From an uncultured delta proteobacterium (lineage in GTDB: Bacteria > Desulfobacterota > BSN033 > UBA1163), in assembly GCA_963827685.1 (NCBI GenBank), contig CAWHBU010000002.1, forward strand, positions 544,001 to 608,000: a DNA stretch of 64,000 nt, in the 5' to 3' direction. The notes beneath the pieces are model-generated. The model saw nothing but the letters and a program-made list of their open reading frames with translations. It ran no database searches and was not told where the DNA came from. A program made the position numbers and the translations under genes. Each line of letters begins with the position of its first letter. Position 1 is the first letter of the stretch. Below, piece after piece: positions 21,310 through 25,008 of the stretch.

Positions 21310-22593
21310 CTAAGATAAAGGATTTTTGGCGACCCGGACCAGTTCTTGGAGGTTTCTGAGTAAACGTCTTGGTTTTCCTTGTGAGAGTTCCTTTTCGGAA
21401 TGGAATCCAGTGGGAAGGGCATAAACATCAACTCGTGCCTGTTTTCCTGTCTCAATATCTGTGAGGGTGTCTCCGACGAAGATCGCCTCCTCTGGCGGGA
21501 GACCCATCTCCCTCAAGACGGCGTGGATCATATCCGGGAAAGGCTTGTTTCGTATGACATCCCCGGCACCGATCACAGATTTAAAATAGTCCGACACACC
21601 CAAGTGCGTGAGCACCCCTCTTGAGAAGCGACCGAATTTATTTGAAGCAATCCCCAGGATGGCACCCTCGGAATGGAGTATTTTTAGAACCTCTTTGGCA
21701 CCATCTAAAAAGTGGGTTTTATTGAGATAGACCTCCTCATATTTCTTTCTCATGACGGGAATACCCTTTAAAACTTCCTCGGGTGAGAAGAACGGAGAAA
21801 GTGTCGCTTCCAAATCTGCCCTGAGATGTATTTTGAGATCCTGAAAAGGAAAGATCTCTTTCCCGAGATATTGAAAGCACTCTTTCAGCCCCAGATAGAT
21901 CGCCTCATAGGATTCGATCAGCGTTCCGTCGAGGTCAAAGATAATTCCATGAATCTGCTTCTTCAGATCATTGAGAATCTCTTGAAAATCCTTGAAAAAA
22001 TGGCAGGTGATATCCTTTTTGATGCAATAGGGGTAAAGGGAATCTTTGGCAAAAACGAAGTCTGCTTCCTGAGCCGCACACCTGTCGGAAAGGCCATTTC
22101 CGATGAAAAAAATGGAATCATATTCTTTTCGGTGGATTTGCACCAGCTTCTTTTTGCAAGTCCCGCAAAGGCCACACTCTTCATCGGAGTGAGGAAAAGA
22201 GACGTCTATGCCTTCCCCCTCCCGGAAATGGGTACAGTTGGCGTAGAATGGGATCTTTGAGAGATGATGAATTTCAAGAATCTTCTTAATATAGAAATCG
22301 AGACCATCGCTGACAATTTTTATATCGATGCCCTTTTCACGACAATACTGGTAGAAAGCAGGAAAGGAGGGGTCGATGTCGGAATGCTCTTGGACAAAAC
22401 GGAGAACGGTTGATTCATCCCCCTTGAGGATTTTTGCGATTCGGGAGTAAGCCTCTCTTGAGCCGATCTTTCCGTCGCGGAAATCCCGGTCGATCCCTTC
22501 CCAATTTCCTGAAGTAAATTGATTGACCAGGACATATCCCGTATCCCGGACGCTGACCGTCCCATCGAAATCACAGAGGATCAATTTTCTCAT
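21310..22593 (-). CDS. Fused double HAD phosphatase (MtnX-like + Gph-like)
   Basis: N-terminal CDFDGTV...SDGLDFYI...CGTCK...GLSDRCAA; C-terminal FDLDGTL...ASNK...KPFPD...VGDT. Confidence 0.85.
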   Translation of the reverse strand: MRKLILCDFDGTVSVRDTGYVLVNQFTSGNWEGIDRDFRDGKIGSREAYSRIAKILKGDESTVLRFVQEHSDIDPSFPAFYQYCREKGIDIKIVSDGLDFYIKKILEIHHLSKIPFYANCTHFREGEGIDVSFPHSDEECGLCGTCKKKLVQIHRKEYDSIFFIGNGLSDRCAAQEADFVFAKDSLYPYCIKKDITCHFFKDFQEILNDLKKQIHGIIFDLDGTLIESYEAIYLGLKECFQYLGKEIFPFQDLKIHLRADLEATLSPFFSPEEVLKGIPVMRKKYEEVYLNKTHFLDGAKEVLKILHSEGAILGIASNKFGRFSRGVLTHLGVSDYFKSVIGAGDVIRNKPFPDMIHAVLREMGLPPEEAIFVGDTLTDIETGKQARVDVYALPTGFHSEKELSQGKPRRLLRNLQELVRVAKNPLS

Positions 22594-22621: not shown

Positions 22622-22737
22622 GTAAAATTCCAAATCCCAAGCACCAAATCACAAACAATACCAAATTTCAAATATCCAATGTTCAAACGAATCAAGCTTC
22701 TTGTTTCGAATTCAGAATTTGGGACATTGGAATTTAT
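22622..22737. repeat. Inverted heptamer array (xxCCAAA / TTTGGxx), continuing at 24381-24407
   Basis: AAATTCC AAATCCC AAGCACC AAATCAC..., followed by complementary units. Confidence 0.7.
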
Positions 22738-22812
22738 TAAGACCGCATCTGAAGACCCCGTCCTGTGGACGGGGATGAAAGGTGCGTCTGCTGAAAGCAG
22801 AAAAAATAAATC

Positions 22813-22832
22813 AGATGCTGAAACAAGTTCAG
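22813..22832. repeat. Left half of the REP palindrome interrupted by the IS110 element
   Basis: AGATGCTGAAACAAGTTCAG rejoined to CATGAC gives a hairpin; a related copy GTCATCCCGAACTTGTTTCGGGATCT lies at 24308-24333. Confidence 0.75.
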
Positions 22833-22920
22833 ACCTTATGATTGAAAAAGAAAGGCAAGTCTCGAGTTTTCGGATATAGTTTTTGGTACGACGCAAAAAC
22901 TCACCGAAAGGAGGCTTGCC

Positions 22921-23997
22921 ATGAGTAATGTTAAGAGTAGCAGACTTGATTTTACGGGTCAACCTATTTACATCGGTCTGGATGTCCACAAAAAGAGCTG
23001 GAGTGTAAGTATCTTTTCGAAGTATGGGGAGTATAAAACGTTTAACCAACCCCCTGAAGCCGACAAACTGGTCCATTACCTGAGCCATTATTTTCCGGGC
23101 GCTCTGTATTATGCGGTTTATGAAGCGGGCTATTGCGGCTTCTGGATCCATGATCAATTGAGGAAGAAAGGGATCCAATGTCTCGTGGTTAACCCGGCTG
23201 ATATCCCGACGAAGAATAAAGAGCGAAGGACCAAACGGGATCCGATCGATTGCCGCAAATTGGCCCGGAGTCTTCGCAATGGGGAGATCGAGGGCATCTA
23301 TGTCCCTTGCAGATCGAAACTGGAAGATCGCACTCTGATCCGGACCCGTCAGAGCATGGTGAGGAAGCAGACGCGATGTAAAAACCAGATCAAAGGGATG
23401 CTGCTGTTTTATGGAGTGGTGATTCCAGAGGAAAGAGAGATGGGCCATTGGAGCCGACGATTCATCCAGTGGATCGAGCGGATTCGGATGGAAAGAGCCA
23501 GCGGGGATATAGCCCTGAAGGCCCACTTGGAGGAACTGAACCATCTGCGCCAGCTGATCGCCAGTTTGAACCGGGCCATCCTGCACCTGGCCAGGACGGA
23601 GGAGTACCGGCCTTTTGTCCGTTTGTTGAAGACGGTCCCCGGGATCAGCACGCTGACAGCCATGATCTTGCTGGCGGAACTGGGTGAGATTACGCGTTTC
23701 CCGTCTCTGGACGAGTTGTCCTGTTACGTTGGACTGATTCCAGACACTCAAGAAAGTGGTGAGAAACAATACGTCGGAGGAATTACGCAGCGGCGCCATG
23801 CGCAGTTGAGGTGGCTGCTCATTGAAGCCTCCTGGGTTGCAGTCCGCAAGGATCCGGCGCTTCTGATGGCCTTCCAGGAGTACTGCAAAAGGATGCGCAA
23901 GACGAAGGCCATCGTCAAGATCGCCAGGAAACTTCTGAACCGGATCCGCTACGTTCTCAAAAATCAGGCGGAATACGTTCCGTGTGTCATTGAGTAA
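22921..23997 (+). CDS. IS110-family DEDD transposase/recombinase
   Basis: YIGLDVHK, VYEAG, KRDPIDC (DEDD), TVPGI, YVGLIP...SG (catalytic Ser), ARKL. Confidence 0.95.
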   Translation: MSNVKSSRLDFTGQPIYIGLDVHKKSWSVSIFSKYGEYKTFNQPPEADKLVHYLSHYFPGALYYAVYEAGYCGFWIHDQLRKKGIQCLVVNPADIPTKNKERRTKRDPIDCRKLARSLRNGEIEGIYVPCRSKLEDRTLIRTRQSMVRKQTRCKNQIKGMLLFYGVVIPEEREMGHWSRRFIQWIERIRMERASGDIALKAHLEELNHLRQLIASLNRAILHLARTEEYRPFVRLLKTVPGISTLTAMILLAELGEITRFPSLDELSCYVGLIPDTQESGEKQYVGGITQRRHAQLRWLLIEASWVAVRKDPALLMAFQEYCKRMRKTKAIVKIARKLLNRIRYVLKNQAEYVPCVIE

Positions 23998-24041
23998 CTC
24001 TAAATGCATTGGGACATGACCCGATCTGATAAATCGCTTCC

Positions 24042-24185
24042 GTGGGCAACGATATGTCATGCTTGCAGCTCATCGCAAGATGATGGCTGCTACAGTTCAG
24101 ACTCCGTGCCCACACTTTAAAATATGACAAGGTTTTGCAGCTATCCGAAAACGATATGTCTGCTAATAGAAGGTTGATTTTAAAG
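24042..24185 (+). ncRNA. Predicted bridge/seek RNA with target-binding and donor-binding loops
   Basis: Loop 1 is closed by GTGGGCA/TGCCCAC and contains TGTCATGCT and AGTTCAG (match to the target flanks). Loop 2 is closed by CTTTAAAAT/ATTTTAAAG and contains AAGGTTT and ATAGAAG (match to the circle junction). Transcript ends and strand are inferred. Confidence 0.8.
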
Positions 24186-24409
24186 ATTGGTGCTGTCCTT
24201 AAAAACATTATCTAATACCACGTCTATGCTGATTGGGACTTGCTTTTCAACATAGAAGCATGACACAACATAGAAGCATGACACGACGGTTCGGTTCTGG
24301 TCTTTTTGTCATCCCGAACTTGTTTCGGGATCTCGGTTTTGGGTTTTAGAATTTAGGTTTTAAAGCCCCGCCCTGGCGGGATTGGAATTTGGGATTTGGG
24401 TATTCAAGT

Positions 24410-24928
24410 TTAGTCATCCCAACCGATCTTTTTCCTTTTGGTAACAGGGAGCTTGAACTTCTCTTTCAACCGCCTGACAACCAGGTCTGGAACCAATCCC
24501 TCCACACCGCCCCCTAATCTGGCAACCTCTTTGATCGTTCTGGAGGAGACGAAAAAATAGTCCTTACTGGTCATCATGAAGAGGGTATCCAGATGGGTGT
24601 TGAGGCTTCGATTCATAGAGGCCATATGAAATTCATATTCGAAGTCTGAGGTGGCCCGGAGGCCCCTTAAAATCACTTTGGCATTGGTCTTCGCTACATA
24701 GTCGACAAGAAGTCCCTTGAAACTGTCCACGATGACATTGGGTGTGTCCTTAAAGATGGTTTTGGTCATCTTCAGCCGTTCCTCAATGGTGAAGAGAGAA
24801 CGTTTTTCAACATTATTGGCAATGGCCACAATCACCTTGTCGAAGATCTCAAGACCCCTCTCGATGATATCAATATGACCATAGGTAATAGGATCAAACG
24901 AGCCCGCGTAGATGGCCACTTTTCCCAT
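24410..24928 (-). CDS. coaD: Phosphopantetheine adenylyltransferase
   Basis: YAGSFDPITYGH, RGLRATSDFEYE, VSSRTIKE; start 24928 or 24961. Confidence 0.97.
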   Translation of the reverse strand: MGKVAIYAGSFDPITYGHIDIIERGLEIFDKVIVAIANNVEKRSLFTIEERLKMTKTIFKDTPNVIVDSFKGLLVDYVAKTNAKVILRGLRATSDFEYEFHMASMNRSLNTHLDTLFMMTSKDYFFVSSRTIKEVARLGGGVEGLVPDLVVRRLKEKFKLPVTKRKKIGWDD

Positions 24929-25008
24929 ATCTTTTTCTTCTCCTTTCTTCTTTTGTGCCATTCCATTCCCCCCGTTTATGGGCCTGCACCAGGCAGGCGA
25001 AAATGGGT

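What the first reader, a model, noticed from the sequence alone, without database searches (positions are those of the whole stretch)
22813..24285. IS110/IS1111 element with a directly readable bridge RNA aimed at a REP palindrome
Seen: the empty site reconstructs as CAAGTTC-AG-CATGACA and the circle junction as CATAGA-AG-ACCTTAT. In the 3' non-coding region, loop 1 (24042-24113) contains TGTCATGCT (24055-24063, reverse complement of AGCATGACA) and AGTTCAG (24094-24100, the left flank). Loop 2 (24115-24185) contains AAGGTTT (24129-24135, reverse complement of AGACCTT with one wobble-type mismatch) and ATAGAAG (24166-24172, the right end). Both loops share a guide-TGCAGC...CTGCTA-guide scaffold. 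Known: IS110-family recombinases use such bispecific RNAs. Inference: a complete RNA-programmed recombinase with an AG core that uses a host repeat as a safe landing site; likely a new orthologue for reprogramming.
Basis: partly seen in the sequence, partly recalled or inferred. Interest (0 to 1): 0.85.

Follow-up and report, generated by a model that had tools for sequence, protein, structure and literature searches.

The report
RNA-guided IS1111-type insertion sequence
This is an intact jumping gene of a known RNA-guided type: it carries its own small "bridge" RNA, which spells out both the host repeat it landed in and its own ends, so it is a new example of a mechanism described in 2024.

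Summary
Window 22833-24258 is a single-copy 1,426-bp IS110-family element. It has a DEDD/Ser recombinase gene (22921-23997), 12-nt subterminal inverted repeats, a short left end and a 261-nt 3' non-coding region. All four guide strings lie at the stated coordinates, in the internal loops of two stem-loops (24042-24113, 24115-24185).

- **Structure:** across 15 homologues 95.5% of pair cells are paired and 16 of 36 pairs show compensatory changes.
- **Target guides:** they covary with the flanks in genome-derived and metagenome-derived relatives, including relatives aimed at non-REP sites.
- **Empty site:** contigs from other public runs join 22830 to 24275, showing CAAGTTC-AG-CATGACA directly.
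- **Target:** a modest REP-like family, GAT-hairpin-ATGACA, with about 39 copies.

- The right end plus flank is tandemly duplicated (18 bp, 24248-24283).
- The 5' donor guide is the weakest of the four, and its "wobble" core match is not conserved in relatives.
- No circle junction and no RNA were observed.

Verdict: a genuine, probably functional IS1111-type bridge/seek-RNA element. It is a new orthologue, at most 33% identical to named IS transposases, of a known kind. Interest is low to moderate.

The parts
22814..22832 (+). Left half of the interrupted REP-like palindrome (GATGCTGAA-ACAAG-TTCAG). The last 7 nt (AGTTCAG, 22826-22832) form the left target plus the AG core (22831-22832).
   Evidence: Sequence. 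The uninterrupted form was seen in contigs of other runs. REP census.
22833..24258 (+). The insertion sequence proper, 1,426 bp, single copy in the genome. The right core AG (24257-24258) is counted with the element.
   Evidence: The skip 22831-24274 is 1,444 nt, equal to 1,426 + 18.
22833..22849 (+). Left terminal extension (ACCTTATGATTGAAAAA). The first 5-7 nt are the donor half-site next to the core. TATGAT (22837-22842) is a -10-like hexamer.
   Evidence: Conserved at the left end of the 18 relatives where it is present. Hexamer scan.
22850..22861 (+). Left subterminal inverted repeat (GAAAGGCAAGTC). It overlaps the 5' arm (22854-22863) of a hairpin with the ribosome-binding/start region (22911-22920).
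   Evidence: repeat I8. (arm pairing kept in 17 of 17 relatives scored, with compensatory changes).
22921..23997 (+). Recombinase/transposase gene, 358 aa. DEDD RuvC-like domain plus Tnp domain. D21, E68, D106, D109 and S278-G279 are conserved.
   Evidence: Pfam PF01548 5.8e-15 and PF02371 4.7e-22. PDB ISCro4 4.4e-11, IS621 7.4e-09. MSA.
24042..24113 (+). Stem-loop 1, the target-binding loop. Basal stem 24042-52 / 24104-13; upper stem GCAGC 24065-69 / GCTGC 24086-90.
   Evidence: helices 1-4.
24055..24063 (+). 5' target guide UGUCAUGCU. It is complementary to the top strand of core plus right flank (AG-CATGACA).
   Evidence: repeats I16/I17. Covariation with right flanks.
24094..24102 (+). 3' target guide AGUUCAG. 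It is identical to left flank plus core, so it pairs with the bottom strand. It is followed by AC (24101-02), which matches the first two bases of the element's left end and is a candidate handshake guide.
   Evidence: left test. AC is invariant in 14 of 15 relatives; L028 has TC and a left end that begins TC.
24115..24185 (+). Stem-loop 2, the donor-binding loop. Basal stem 24115-23 / 24177-85; upper stem GCAGC 24137-41 / GUCUGC 24158-63.
   Evidence: helices 5-6.
24129..24135 (+). 5' donor guide AAGGU(UU). It is complementary to the left-end bases ACCTT. Core pairing is only U-A plus a U.G wobble here and is not conserved in relatives.
   Evidence: 5/5 in 4 of 14, 4/5 in 8, 3/5 in 2. The core columns vary.
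24166..24172 (+). 3' donor guide AUAGAAG, identical to the right end plus core.
   Evidence: 7/7 in 13 of 14. The G/A change covaries in L025, L026 and L027.
24237..24248 (+). Right subterminal inverted repeat (GACTTGCTTTTC). It contains the -35-like TTGCTT (24240-45).
24248..24283 (+). Two perfect tandem copies of an 18-bp unit (CAACATAGAAG + CATGACA). The unit is 11 nt of right end and 7 nt of right flank. Either copy can serve as the right boundary.
   Evidence: D2. Absent from relatives at the same kind of site (L012, L015) and from the empty-site contigs.
24307..24331 (-). Neighbouring intact REP-like copy in the opposite orientation (on the - strand: GATCCCGAAACAAGTTCGGGATGACA).
   Evidence: (I7).

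Best explanation
Window 22833-24258 is an intact IS110-family insertion sequence with IS1111-type anatomy. Its DEDD/Ser recombinase is programmed by a bridge (seek) RNA of about 150 nt, encoded in the 3' non-coding region at about 24041-24190.

Stem-loop 1 reads the target. [quoted passage not shown] Stem-loop 2 reads the element's own joined ends. AUAGAAG reads the right end plus core. AAGGU, more weakly, reads the left end.

A circular copy with abutted ends (CATAGA-AG-ACCTTAT) recombined at the AG core with a REP-like palindrome. The palindrome was split in its 3' arm and there is no target duplication.

Shown here: the anatomy, the RNA structure covariation, the guide/flank covariation and the empty site. 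Inferred from the published IS621, ISEc11 and ISPa11 work: the circle, RNA binding by the recombinase, strand exchange at AG, and present-day activity.
For: Protein.
- Both family domains are present.
- Catalytic positions D21, E68, D106, D109 and S278 align with ISEc11, IS4321 and ISEc21.

Anatomy.
- sTIR 11/12.
- Left end 88 nt, right end 261 nt.

RNA structure over 15 homologues.
- 36 pairs; 95.5% of 532 cells are paired, against 34.8-43.7% when the 3' partners are slid.
- 16 pairs have changes on both sides.
- 0 of 500 shuffles reach the observed value for four of five measures. For 'further pair types' 26 of 500 do.

Right guide against right flank.
- Genome-derived set: the longest exact match beyond the core is 7 or more in 10 of 14 loci. 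The self mean is 6.5; the non-self mean is 3.59; 5 of 172 non-self pairs reach 7.
- Metagenome set with anchor extraction: 7 or more in 17 of 21, against 47 of 374 non-self.
- Metagenome set without anchors: the element's own 3' region holds 8 nt or more of the reverse complement of AG plus its own flank in 30 of 46 loci. For non-self pairs the figure is 133 of 1,924.
- Relatives with non-REP flanks carry matching guides (L105 11 nt, L071 9 nt, L127 9 nt).

Left guide against left flank.
- In register from the core, runs of 5 or more in 10 of 15 loci. The self mean is 4.8 of 7 against 2.29 in 194 non-self pairs.
- In the metagenome set the mean is 3.93 against 1.87.

Donor 3' guide: 7/7 in 13 of 14, with a covarying G/A in 3 loci.

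Empty site: seen in contigs of runs X2 and X16.

Guide order: the top-strand match lies 5' of the bottom-strand match, as reported for IS1111-family seekRNAs (PMC11187229 section 9).
Against: - No RNA evidence. The RNA-library contigs that touch the element are 90-95% relatives, and DNA carry-over cannot be excluded.
- No circle junction was seen.
- There is only one copy in the genome. Six REP sites lie one mismatch from the 14-nt target, none occupied, and there is no other perfect site.
- The 5' donor guide is perfect in only 4 of 14 relatives and its core-pairing positions are not conserved.
- Several relatives sit in imperfectly matching sites: L021, L023 and L025 on the right; L011, L025 and L027 on the left.
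- In the anchor-free test 16 of 46 loci have fewer than 8 nt. At least one of these (L049) is low because its guide lies outside the 230-nt slice scanned.
- The junction-promoter idea is weak here: 8/12 across the circle junction against 7/12 in the integrated state.
- The transposase is 358 aa. This is just outside the 330-350 aa quoted for IS1111-family proteins.
Confidence: 0.9

Rival explanations
1. Same element and same history, but it is now immobile. It would be a stranded single copy whose guides still match only because it has not decayed. The 18-bp right-junction duplication may interfere with excision.
For: One copy only. Near-cognate REP sites are unoccupied. The duplicated right junction is not seen in relatives at the same kind of target. 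No circle joint was found.
Against: The ORF is intact with all catalytic positions. The sTIRs are intact and the guides match perfectly. Near-identical sequence occurs in 14 runs holding half or more of the sampled words; all 20 holding runs together come from 13 studies. Close relatives occur as two copies in one assembly (L022/L023). Either copy of the duplicated end still offers a complete right junction.
Confidence: 0.25
2. It is an RNA-guided IS110-family element but not a member of the IS1111 group proper. It would belong to a deep lineage of IS110 type that independently carries its long non-coding region downstream. Such exceptions are mentioned in PMC11187229 section 6.
For: Identity to IS1111-group references is low: ISEc11 29% over residues 104-352, IS4321 21%. 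The closest named proteins, ISEc45 and ISSso6 (33% and 30%), have a group I could not establish from text. The protein is 358 aa.
Against: blastp scores are 77 and 65 bits to ISEc11 and IS4321, against 20 bits (E 1.5) to the IS110-group reference ISEc21. The sTIR is 12 nt. The guide order is that of the IS1111 type.
Confidence: 0.15
3. The complementarities are chance or a by-product of the palindromic target, and the protein alone chooses the site.
For: The target is a palindrome, so short self-complementary strings are expected near it. The 5' donor match is only 5 nt.
Against: Guides change together with flanks across dozens of independent insertions, including non-palindromic, non-REP targets. 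The guides sit at fixed positions of a covariation-supported structure.
Confidence: 0.02

Closest known systems
ISPa11, ISEc11, ISKpn4 and ISPst6 (IS1111 family) with their seekRNAs (Siddiquee et al. 2024, PMC11187229; abstract and sections 6, 9, 13 read)
   Same: DEDD transposase. Subterminal inverted repeats. Long non-coding region downstream of tnp that encodes the guide RNA. The top-strand match lies 5' of the bottom-strand match. ISPa11 also targets REP sequences.
   Different: The protein is only 29% identical to ISEc11 over part of its length. The hosts are uncultured sediment and wetland bacteria. The target repeat is different. Nothing was tested experimentally here. A clear second (donor) loop is visible here. 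The passages I read of that paper describe target-matching segments only.
IS621 bridge RNA system (IS110 group; Durrant et al. 2024, PMC11208160, passages; Hiraizumi et al. 2024, PMC11208158, passages; 2026, PMC13626964, abstract)
   Same: Bispecific RNA with a target-binding loop and a donor-binding loop. Each loop reads both strands around a 2-nt core. The target is a REP. The catalytic positions are D-E-D-D plus Ser. Dinucleotides next to a guide may act as handshake guides.
   Different: The IS621 RNA lies upstream of the gene; here it lies downstream. The guide order within the loop is reversed. The core is CT in IS621 and AG here. Here the long guide reads the right side (9-10 nt) and the short one the left (7 nt). 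Protein similarity is only E 7.4e-09.
ISPpu9 of Pseudomonas putida (IS110 group; Pares-Guillen et al. 2025, PMC12288879; abstract and Introduction read)
   Same: Inserts in REP sequences. [quoted passage not shown] The 5' UTR structure restrains translation. The ends are modular or duplicated.
   Different: ISPpu9 lacks inverted repeats and belongs to the IS110 group. Its downstream sRNA Ssr9 was not needed for transposition. No sequence relationship was tested here.
ISEc45 and ISSso6 (named IS110-family transposases on E. coli plasmids)
   Same: They are the closest named proteins: 33.0% over 333 aa (142 bits) and 30.3% (125 bits).
   Different: They are still distant. I did not examine their ends, RNA or targets.

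Membership tests
IS110 family (DEDD transposases) | N-terminal DEDD_Tnp_IS110 domain plus C-terminal Transposase_20 domain | tested here: met
   PF01548 55.8 bits (cut-off 29) and PF02371 78.6 bits (cut-off 21.3).
IS110 family (DEDD transposases) | Catalytic D, E, D, D and the Ser of the G..P....SG motif | tested here: met
   D21, E68, D106, D109 and GLIPDTQESG (S278) align with ISEc11, IS4321, ISEc21, ISEc45 and ISSso6, and with ISCro4. Their catalytic role is taken from IS621 (PMC11208158 passage).
IS110 family (DEDD transposases) | Site-specific insertion at a shared core dinucleotide, without target-site duplication | tested here: met
   AG is present at both junctions. The empty site holds one AG (joint 22830>24275, 2-nt ambiguity).
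IS1111 group | Subterminal inverted repeats of 7-17 bp | tested here: met
   22850-61 against 24237-48, 12 nt, 92%. The definition comes from PMC11208160 and PMC11187229.
IS1111 group | Long non-coding region, with the guide RNA, downstream of tnp; short left end | tested here: met
   Left end 88 nt (22833-22920); right end 261 nt (23998-24258).
IS1111 group | Transposase related to IS1111-group proteins rather than IS110-group proteins | tested here: inconclusive
   77 and 65 bits to ISEc11 and IS4321, against 20 bits to ISEc21. IS621 and ISCro4 score 38.5 and 45.8 bits in a different program. No rooted tree with the ISfinder set was made.
IS1111 group | Transposase length 330-350 aa | tested here: not met
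   The protein is 358 aa here and 356 aa in most relatives. The excess is small. The range is quoted from PMC11187229 section 6.
Bridge RNA / seekRNA | Two stem-loops whose internal loops carry the guides, conserved as a structure | tested here: met
   A whole-region alignment of 11 sequences finds the same helices and no others. No Rfam family matched.
Bridge RNA / seekRNA | Target-loop guides covary with the two target half-sites | tested here: met
   The counts are given in the For line.
Bridge RNA / seekRNA | Donor-loop guides match the element's two ends | tested here: inconclusive
   The 3' guide is met: 13 of 14 at 7/7, with one covarying position. The 5' guide is weak: 4 of 14 perfect over 5 nt, and the core positions vary. 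The left end is almost invariant, so there is little to covary with.
Bridge RNA / seekRNA | The RNA is made, binds the recombinase and is required for recombination | not testable with these tools
   Only contigs of RNA libraries from relatives were available. These give no ends, no strand and no proof of transcription.
REP (repetitive extragenic palindromes) as target | A short imperfect palindrome repeated many times | tested here: met
   39 hairpins end in ATGACA, against 3-13 in six controls. 32 of the 39 begin with GAT. The narrower pattern gave 28 hits genome-wide; the two at this locus (the interrupted copy and the intact neighbour) fit the GAT...ATGACA frame. The family is much smaller than the more than 800 REPs of P. 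putida. I did not check that the copies lie between genes.
REP (repetitive extragenic palindromes) as target | Association with a RAYT-type Y1 transposase | not tested
   25 Y1_Tnp matches exist in the genome. 21 of them are multi-copy 144-163-aa IS200/IS605-like frames and 4 are divergent. I did not examine whether REPs flank any of them.

The most novel reading that the evidence does not exclude
This sediment/wetland clade may be a distinct sub-type of IS1111-like bridge recombinase with rules of its own. It would have a long right-target guide and a short left-target guide, and a donor-specific 2-nt handshake (AC) written into the target loop. Its 5' donor guide would not need to pair with the core. 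Its recombination would be imprecise at the right junction often enough to leave small tandem duplications: +18 bp here, +21 bp in L052, +3 bp in L059 and L118. If so, it would show a new failure mode of bridge recombination, and it would offer a compact system with an AG core.
Probability: 0.12. Interest if true: 0.5.

Novelty: new member of a known kind. Interest (0 to 1): 0.3.

Why it matters
Bridge and seek-RNA recombinases are being developed as programmable tools for inserting large DNA fragments. Orthologues with different cores, guide lengths and RNA layouts widen the choice. This element is a cleanly readable natural example from uncultured anaerobic-sediment bacteria. It comes with dozens of natural "reprogrammings" among its relatives, which give a ready-made guide-to-target table. 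For the host genome it is an ordinary single insertion between two genes. For the field it confirms known rules rather than changing them.

Tried and rejected
- **Rfam.** No family matched the element at E of 1 or below apart from a chance SprX hit in the flank. Nothing matched the roughly 190-nt left-end insert of relatives.
- **Closing helix.** I looked for a helix around both stem-loops, as the single-sequence MFE suggested. The 11-sequence alignment does not support one.
- **Junction promoter.** TTGCTT-17-TATGAT across the joined ends scores 8/12. The integrated site already gives 7/12 (ATGCTG-16-TATGAT). This is no evidence for a switch here. Relatives L017 and L018 have TTGACT. The window scan found no convincing promoter for the RNA: 1 site found against 1.6 expected.
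- **RNA evidence.** RNA-library runs X16 and X17 gave contigs over parts of the gene and stem-loop 1 at 90-95% likeness. They are relatives, and DNA carry-over is possible, so this shows nothing about transcription of this copy. The parts of the element without cover in X1, X16 and X17 mean nothing.
- **Circle junction.** No back-joint from about 24258 to about 22833 was seen in the four runs. Contigs drop rare forms, so this is not evidence of absence.
- **The 18-bp duplication.** It could not be checked with reads, because depth over 24182-24295 in the best DNA holder X1 is about 1. It does not look like a product of recombination at an AG core: its junction shares only one base.
- **11-nt complementarity.** The perfect match between 22866-76 and the apical loop of stem-loop 2 (24142-52, I9) is about what chance gives (expected about 0.3) and is not kept in L012. 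I rejected it as a feature.
- **Group of ISEc45 and ISSso6.** I tried to place them through the literature. Siddiquee et al. do not mention them, and the four papers found with 'ISEc45' plus 'IS110' are resistance surveys (listing only).
- **ISEc11 record.** The ISEc11 accession named in PMC11187229 (NZ_CP053751.1) was not in the collections. I used a plasmid copy instead.
- **Supplements.** Supplementary files of all papers were closed. Siddiquee Supplementary Fig. 2 and Durrant Supplementary Table 5 may already place or list this clade.
- **In print or not.** I make no claim that this particular element is absent from print. My searches were not aimed at that.
- **Rows dropped.** From the right test: L014 (its right end is followed by a second RNA module), L016 (contig ends), L019 and L024 (truncated copies), L028 (right end not found by the anchor), and L029 and L030 (no loop found). 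In one search, 34 of 80 loci had under 230 nt upstream and 23 failed the anchor pattern. One search was made to include those 23.
Full report
**What is there.** The region lies between two minus-strand ORFs, 21310-22593 and 24410-24961. A 1,077-nt ORF on the + strand (22921-23997, 358 aa) carries both IS110-family domains: PF01548 at 5.8e-15 and PF02371 at 4.7e-22. It is preceded by AAGGAGG. In an alignment with ISEc11, IS4321, ISEc21, ISEc45, ISSso6 and ten relatives it keeps D21, E68, D106, D109 and the GLxPxxxxSG motif (S278). These are the positions that form the active site in IS621 (PMC11208158 passage). The nearest solved structures are ISCro4 (E 4.4e-11) and IS621 (7.4e-09).

**Boundaries.** On the left the sequence reads CAAGTTC-AG|ACCTTATGATTG, with AG at 22831-32. 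On the right it reads CAACATAGA-AG|CATGACAC. The element proper is therefore 22833-24258, 1,426 bp. It has a 12-nt subterminal inverted repeat (22850-61 / 24237-48, 11 of 12), an 88-nt left end and a 261-nt right end. It is the only copy in the 5.23-Mb, 14-contig genome, which is 46.8% G+C.

**The empty site was observed.** I laid contigs of four public runs on 22700-24400. One contig of a wetland DNA run (X2) and two contigs of a soil RNA-library run (X16, 98 nt on the shorter side) join 22830 directly to 24275. The 2-nt ambiguity equals the AG core. The flanks are 90-97% alike, so these contigs are uninterrupted versions of this locus in related organisms. The 1,444 nt skipped equal the 1,426-bp element plus an 18-bp duplication. 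Three more contigs (one in X1, two in X2) run from the AG at 22832 into CATG and then on to 24294-24304. In two of them the full CATGACA follows; the third reads CATGGGA. No joint of the circle type was seen, and contigs could not be expected to show one.

**The target.** With the element removed, the site reads GATGCTGAA-ACAAG-TTCAGCATGACA, an 8-bp-stem palindrome. A second copy with compensating stem bases lies 50 nt to the right in the opposite orientation (24307-24331). Genome-wide, 39 hairpins (stem of 8 or more, at most 1 mismatch) end in ATGACA. Six controls (the reversed genome and five permuted tails) give 3-13. Of the 39, 32 start with GAT. This is a REP-like family, though a small one. 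No other perfect 14-nt target exists. Six sites are one mismatch away, and none of them is occupied.

**The RNA structure.** Single-sequence folding places them in the internal loops of two stem-loops (z-scores -2.9 and -1.9). Twenty relatives from genome contigs are 52-92% identical in protein and come from MAGs labelled Thermodesulfobacteriota, Nitrospirota and others. Fifteen of their RNA regions were aligned.

The RNAalifold consensus has 36 pairs in two stem-loops. Each stem-loop has a variable basal stem, a large internal loop and an invariant GCAGC/GUCUGC upper stem. Counts on that structure are:
- 95.5% of 532 cells are paired.
- 16 pairs have changes on both sides.
- 0 of 500 shuffles reach the observed value for four of five measures. 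For 'further pair types' 26 of 500 do.
- Only 34.8-43.7% of cells are paired when the 3' partners are slid by 1-3 columns.

An alignment of the whole 3' region of 11 elements finds the same helices and nothing else. Conservation runs from about 24041 to about 24190. Rfam holds no matching family.

*Genome-derived set.*
- Right side: the reverse complement of the 5' strand of loop 1 shares an exact run of 7 nt or more with the element's own right flank, core excluded, in 10 of 14 loci. The values are 8, 7, 7, 8, 8, 6, 7, 3, 7, 4, 5, 7, 7, 7.
- Of 172 non-self pairs, 5 reach 7. The mean is 3.59.
- Left side: the 3' strand of loop 1, read in register from the AG, matches the element's own left flank for 5 consecutive bases or more in 10 of 15 loci. 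The self mean is 4.8 of 7 against 2.29 in 194 non-self pairs.
- Misses are L021, L023 and L025 on the right, and L011, L025 and L027 on the left.
- Four of these loci (the window, L012, L014, L015) share one target type, so they are not independent.

- With anchor extraction, 23 loci were usable and 21 were distinct. The right match is 7 or more in 17 of 21, against 47 of 374 non-self. The left mean is 3.93 against 1.87.
- The anchor pattern failed on 23 loci, so I repeated the right-side test without any anchor.
- In that test the 230 nt of each element's own 3' region contain 8 nt or more of the reverse complement of AG plus its own flank in 30 of 46 loci. For non-self pairs the figure is 133 of 1,924.
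- The match usually lies about 185 nt before the end.
- The background is inflated because 56 of 80 flanks carry the shared TGAC of this REP family.
- Relatives in quite different sites carry matching guides: L105 (TGGCGGATCC flank, 11 nt), L071 (9 nt) and L127 (9 nt).

The target-loop reading is therefore well supported.

**The donor loop.** The 3' strand (AUAGAAG) equals the right end plus core in 13 of 14 relatives; L014 has 6 of 7. The three relatives whose right end reads ATAAAAG all have ATAAAAG in the loop.

The 5' strand is weaker. AAGGU is the exact complement of the left-end ACCTT in 4 of 14 relatives. It has one mismatch in 8 and two mismatches in 2. The two positions that should read the core vary freely (TT, TC, AC, CT, GC, AA, GT). 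The left end is almost invariant, so covariation cannot test this guide. Discontiguous pairing of the corresponding guide is described for IS621 (PMC11208160 passage).

**A possible handshake.** The left-target guide is followed by AC in 14 of 15 relatives, and AC is how the left end begins. The one relative with TC (L028) has a left end beginning TC. This is a single covarying event. It fits the handshake guides described for IS621. I rate it a lead only.

**Comparison with the known.**
- In IS621 the RNA lies upstream. [quoted passage not shown]
- Here the RNA lies downstream and the order is reversed: the top-strand match comes first. Siddiquee et al. report exactly this for IS1111-family seekRNAs, as opposed to ISEc21. 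The core here is AG, as in ISPpu9.
- Durrant et al. predicted bridge RNAs in the right end of 93% of IS1111 elements.
- By protein, the element is far from every named IS that I could fetch: ISEc45 33%, ISSso6 30%, ISEc11 29% over residues 104-352, IS4321 21%. There is no significant blastp match to the IS110-group ISEc21 (20 bits).
- It is therefore IS1111-type by anatomy and leans that way by sequence. I did not make a rooted tree, and the supplementary phylogenies were closed.

**How it most likely works.**
1. *Inferred from the published systems:* the element excises as a circle with abutted ends.
2. *Inferred from the published systems:* the recombinase binds the RNA processed from the 3' part of its own transcript.
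3. *Supported here by the guide/flank and guide/end matches; the binding itself is inferred:* loop 2 holds the joined ends and loop 1 holds the REP half-sites.
4. *Inferred from the published systems; the single AG of the empty site agrees:* strands are exchanged at AG.

Whether this copy is still active is open. It is intact and its guides match perfectly. Against that, it is alone in its genome and its right junction is duplicated.

**Things off the main line.**
- The 18-bp duplication (24248-65 / 24266-83) spans 11 nt of the element and 7 nt of the flank. It is absent from relatives in the same kind of site (L012, L015) and from the empty-site contigs. It could not be checked with reads.
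- Other right-junction oddities occur in relatives: a 21-bp duplicated end in L052, and an extra AAG in L059 and L118.
- The left inverted repeat is also complementary to the ribosome-binding/start region in all 17 relatives scored by the script. There are compensatory changes, GGCAAG/CTTGCC against GACAAG/CTTGTC. By eye, L027 and L028 have entirely different but still complementary arms.
- Six relatives carry a roughly 190-nt rod-like insert between the left terminus and the left repeat. It has no Rfam match.
- In L014 a second copy of the RNA module follows the right end.

**Verdict.** This is a new orthologue of a known kind, and nothing found here departs from the published mechanism.

Noticed in passing
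window 24248-24283: A perfect 18-bp tandem duplication spans the right end of the element (11 nt) and the right flank (7 nt). It gives two equivalent right boundaries. The copies share only 1 nt of microhomology at their junction, so this is not an AG-core event. Read depth was too low to verify it.
   Followed up: partly
L052:108-148; L059 and L118 right junctions: Relatives also show small tandem duplications at the right junction. L052 repeats 21 bp of the end itself. L059 and L118 have an extra AAG between the end and the flank. Together with the window, that is 4 loci among the roughly 100 looked at.
   Followed up: partly
window 22854-22863 with 22911-22920: The left subterminal repeat is complementary to the Shine-Dalgarno/start-codon region (9 of 10 here). 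The pairing is kept in all 17 relatives scored, with compensatory changes. This suggests a hairpin that hides the start site in transcripts entering from outside.
   Followed up: partly
L011:70-270, L013:130-330, L015:40-245, L016:740-930, L017:2250-2425, L018:20-210: Six relatives carry a roughly 190-nt insert between the left terminus and the left repeat. It folds into a long rod (54 predicted pairs, 6 with compensatory changes). It has no Rfam match and is absent from the window.
   Followed up: partly
L014:3651-4142: After the right end of this relative a second copy of its own bridge-RNA module begins, joined at an internal sequence that resembles the left end. This is reminiscent of the modular circles described for ISPpu9.
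   Followed up: partly
window 22866-22876 with 24142-24152: There is an 11-nt perfect complementarity between the 5' UTR and the apical loop of stem-loop 2. About 0.3 such repeats are expected by chance, and it is not kept in L012. It is probably chance.
   Followed up: partly
window 22875-22880: A TATAGT hexamer lies in the left end. It reads TATAAT at the same place in most of the close relatives (L011, L013, L014, L015, L017, L018; by eye). It is a candidate -10 box of a native tnp promoter.
   Followed up: no
G000 C3:474608, C3:916605, C6:135148, C1:68379, C3:911911, C6:542173: The genome holds six further Transposase_20 matches. Five lie in 402-aa open frames and one in a 253-aa frame. 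These are other IS110-family lineages in the same genome. Their RNAs and targets were not examined.
   Followed up: no
G000, 25 places: There are 25 Y1_Tnp matches. 18 have identical scores and lie in 163-aa frames, and 3 lie in 144-aa frames (a multi-copy IS200/IS605-like element). Four are divergent and could be REP-associated transposases. Any link to the REP family was not examined.
   Followed up: no
genome-wide, e.g. C2:183143/183194, C3:205983: The REP-like superfamily has several sub-types sharing GAT...ATGACA, for example CTGGATTCCCGTTTTCACGGGAATGACA and CTGGATTCCGGGTCAAGCCCGGAATGACA. Some occur as close inverted pairs.
   Followed up: partly
L019:3612-3900 and L024:3565-3700: Two Nitrospirota relatives are truncated. 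The L019 3' region departs from its sister copy L020 just after stem-loop 1, and L024 loses the RNA region altogether.
   Followed up: no
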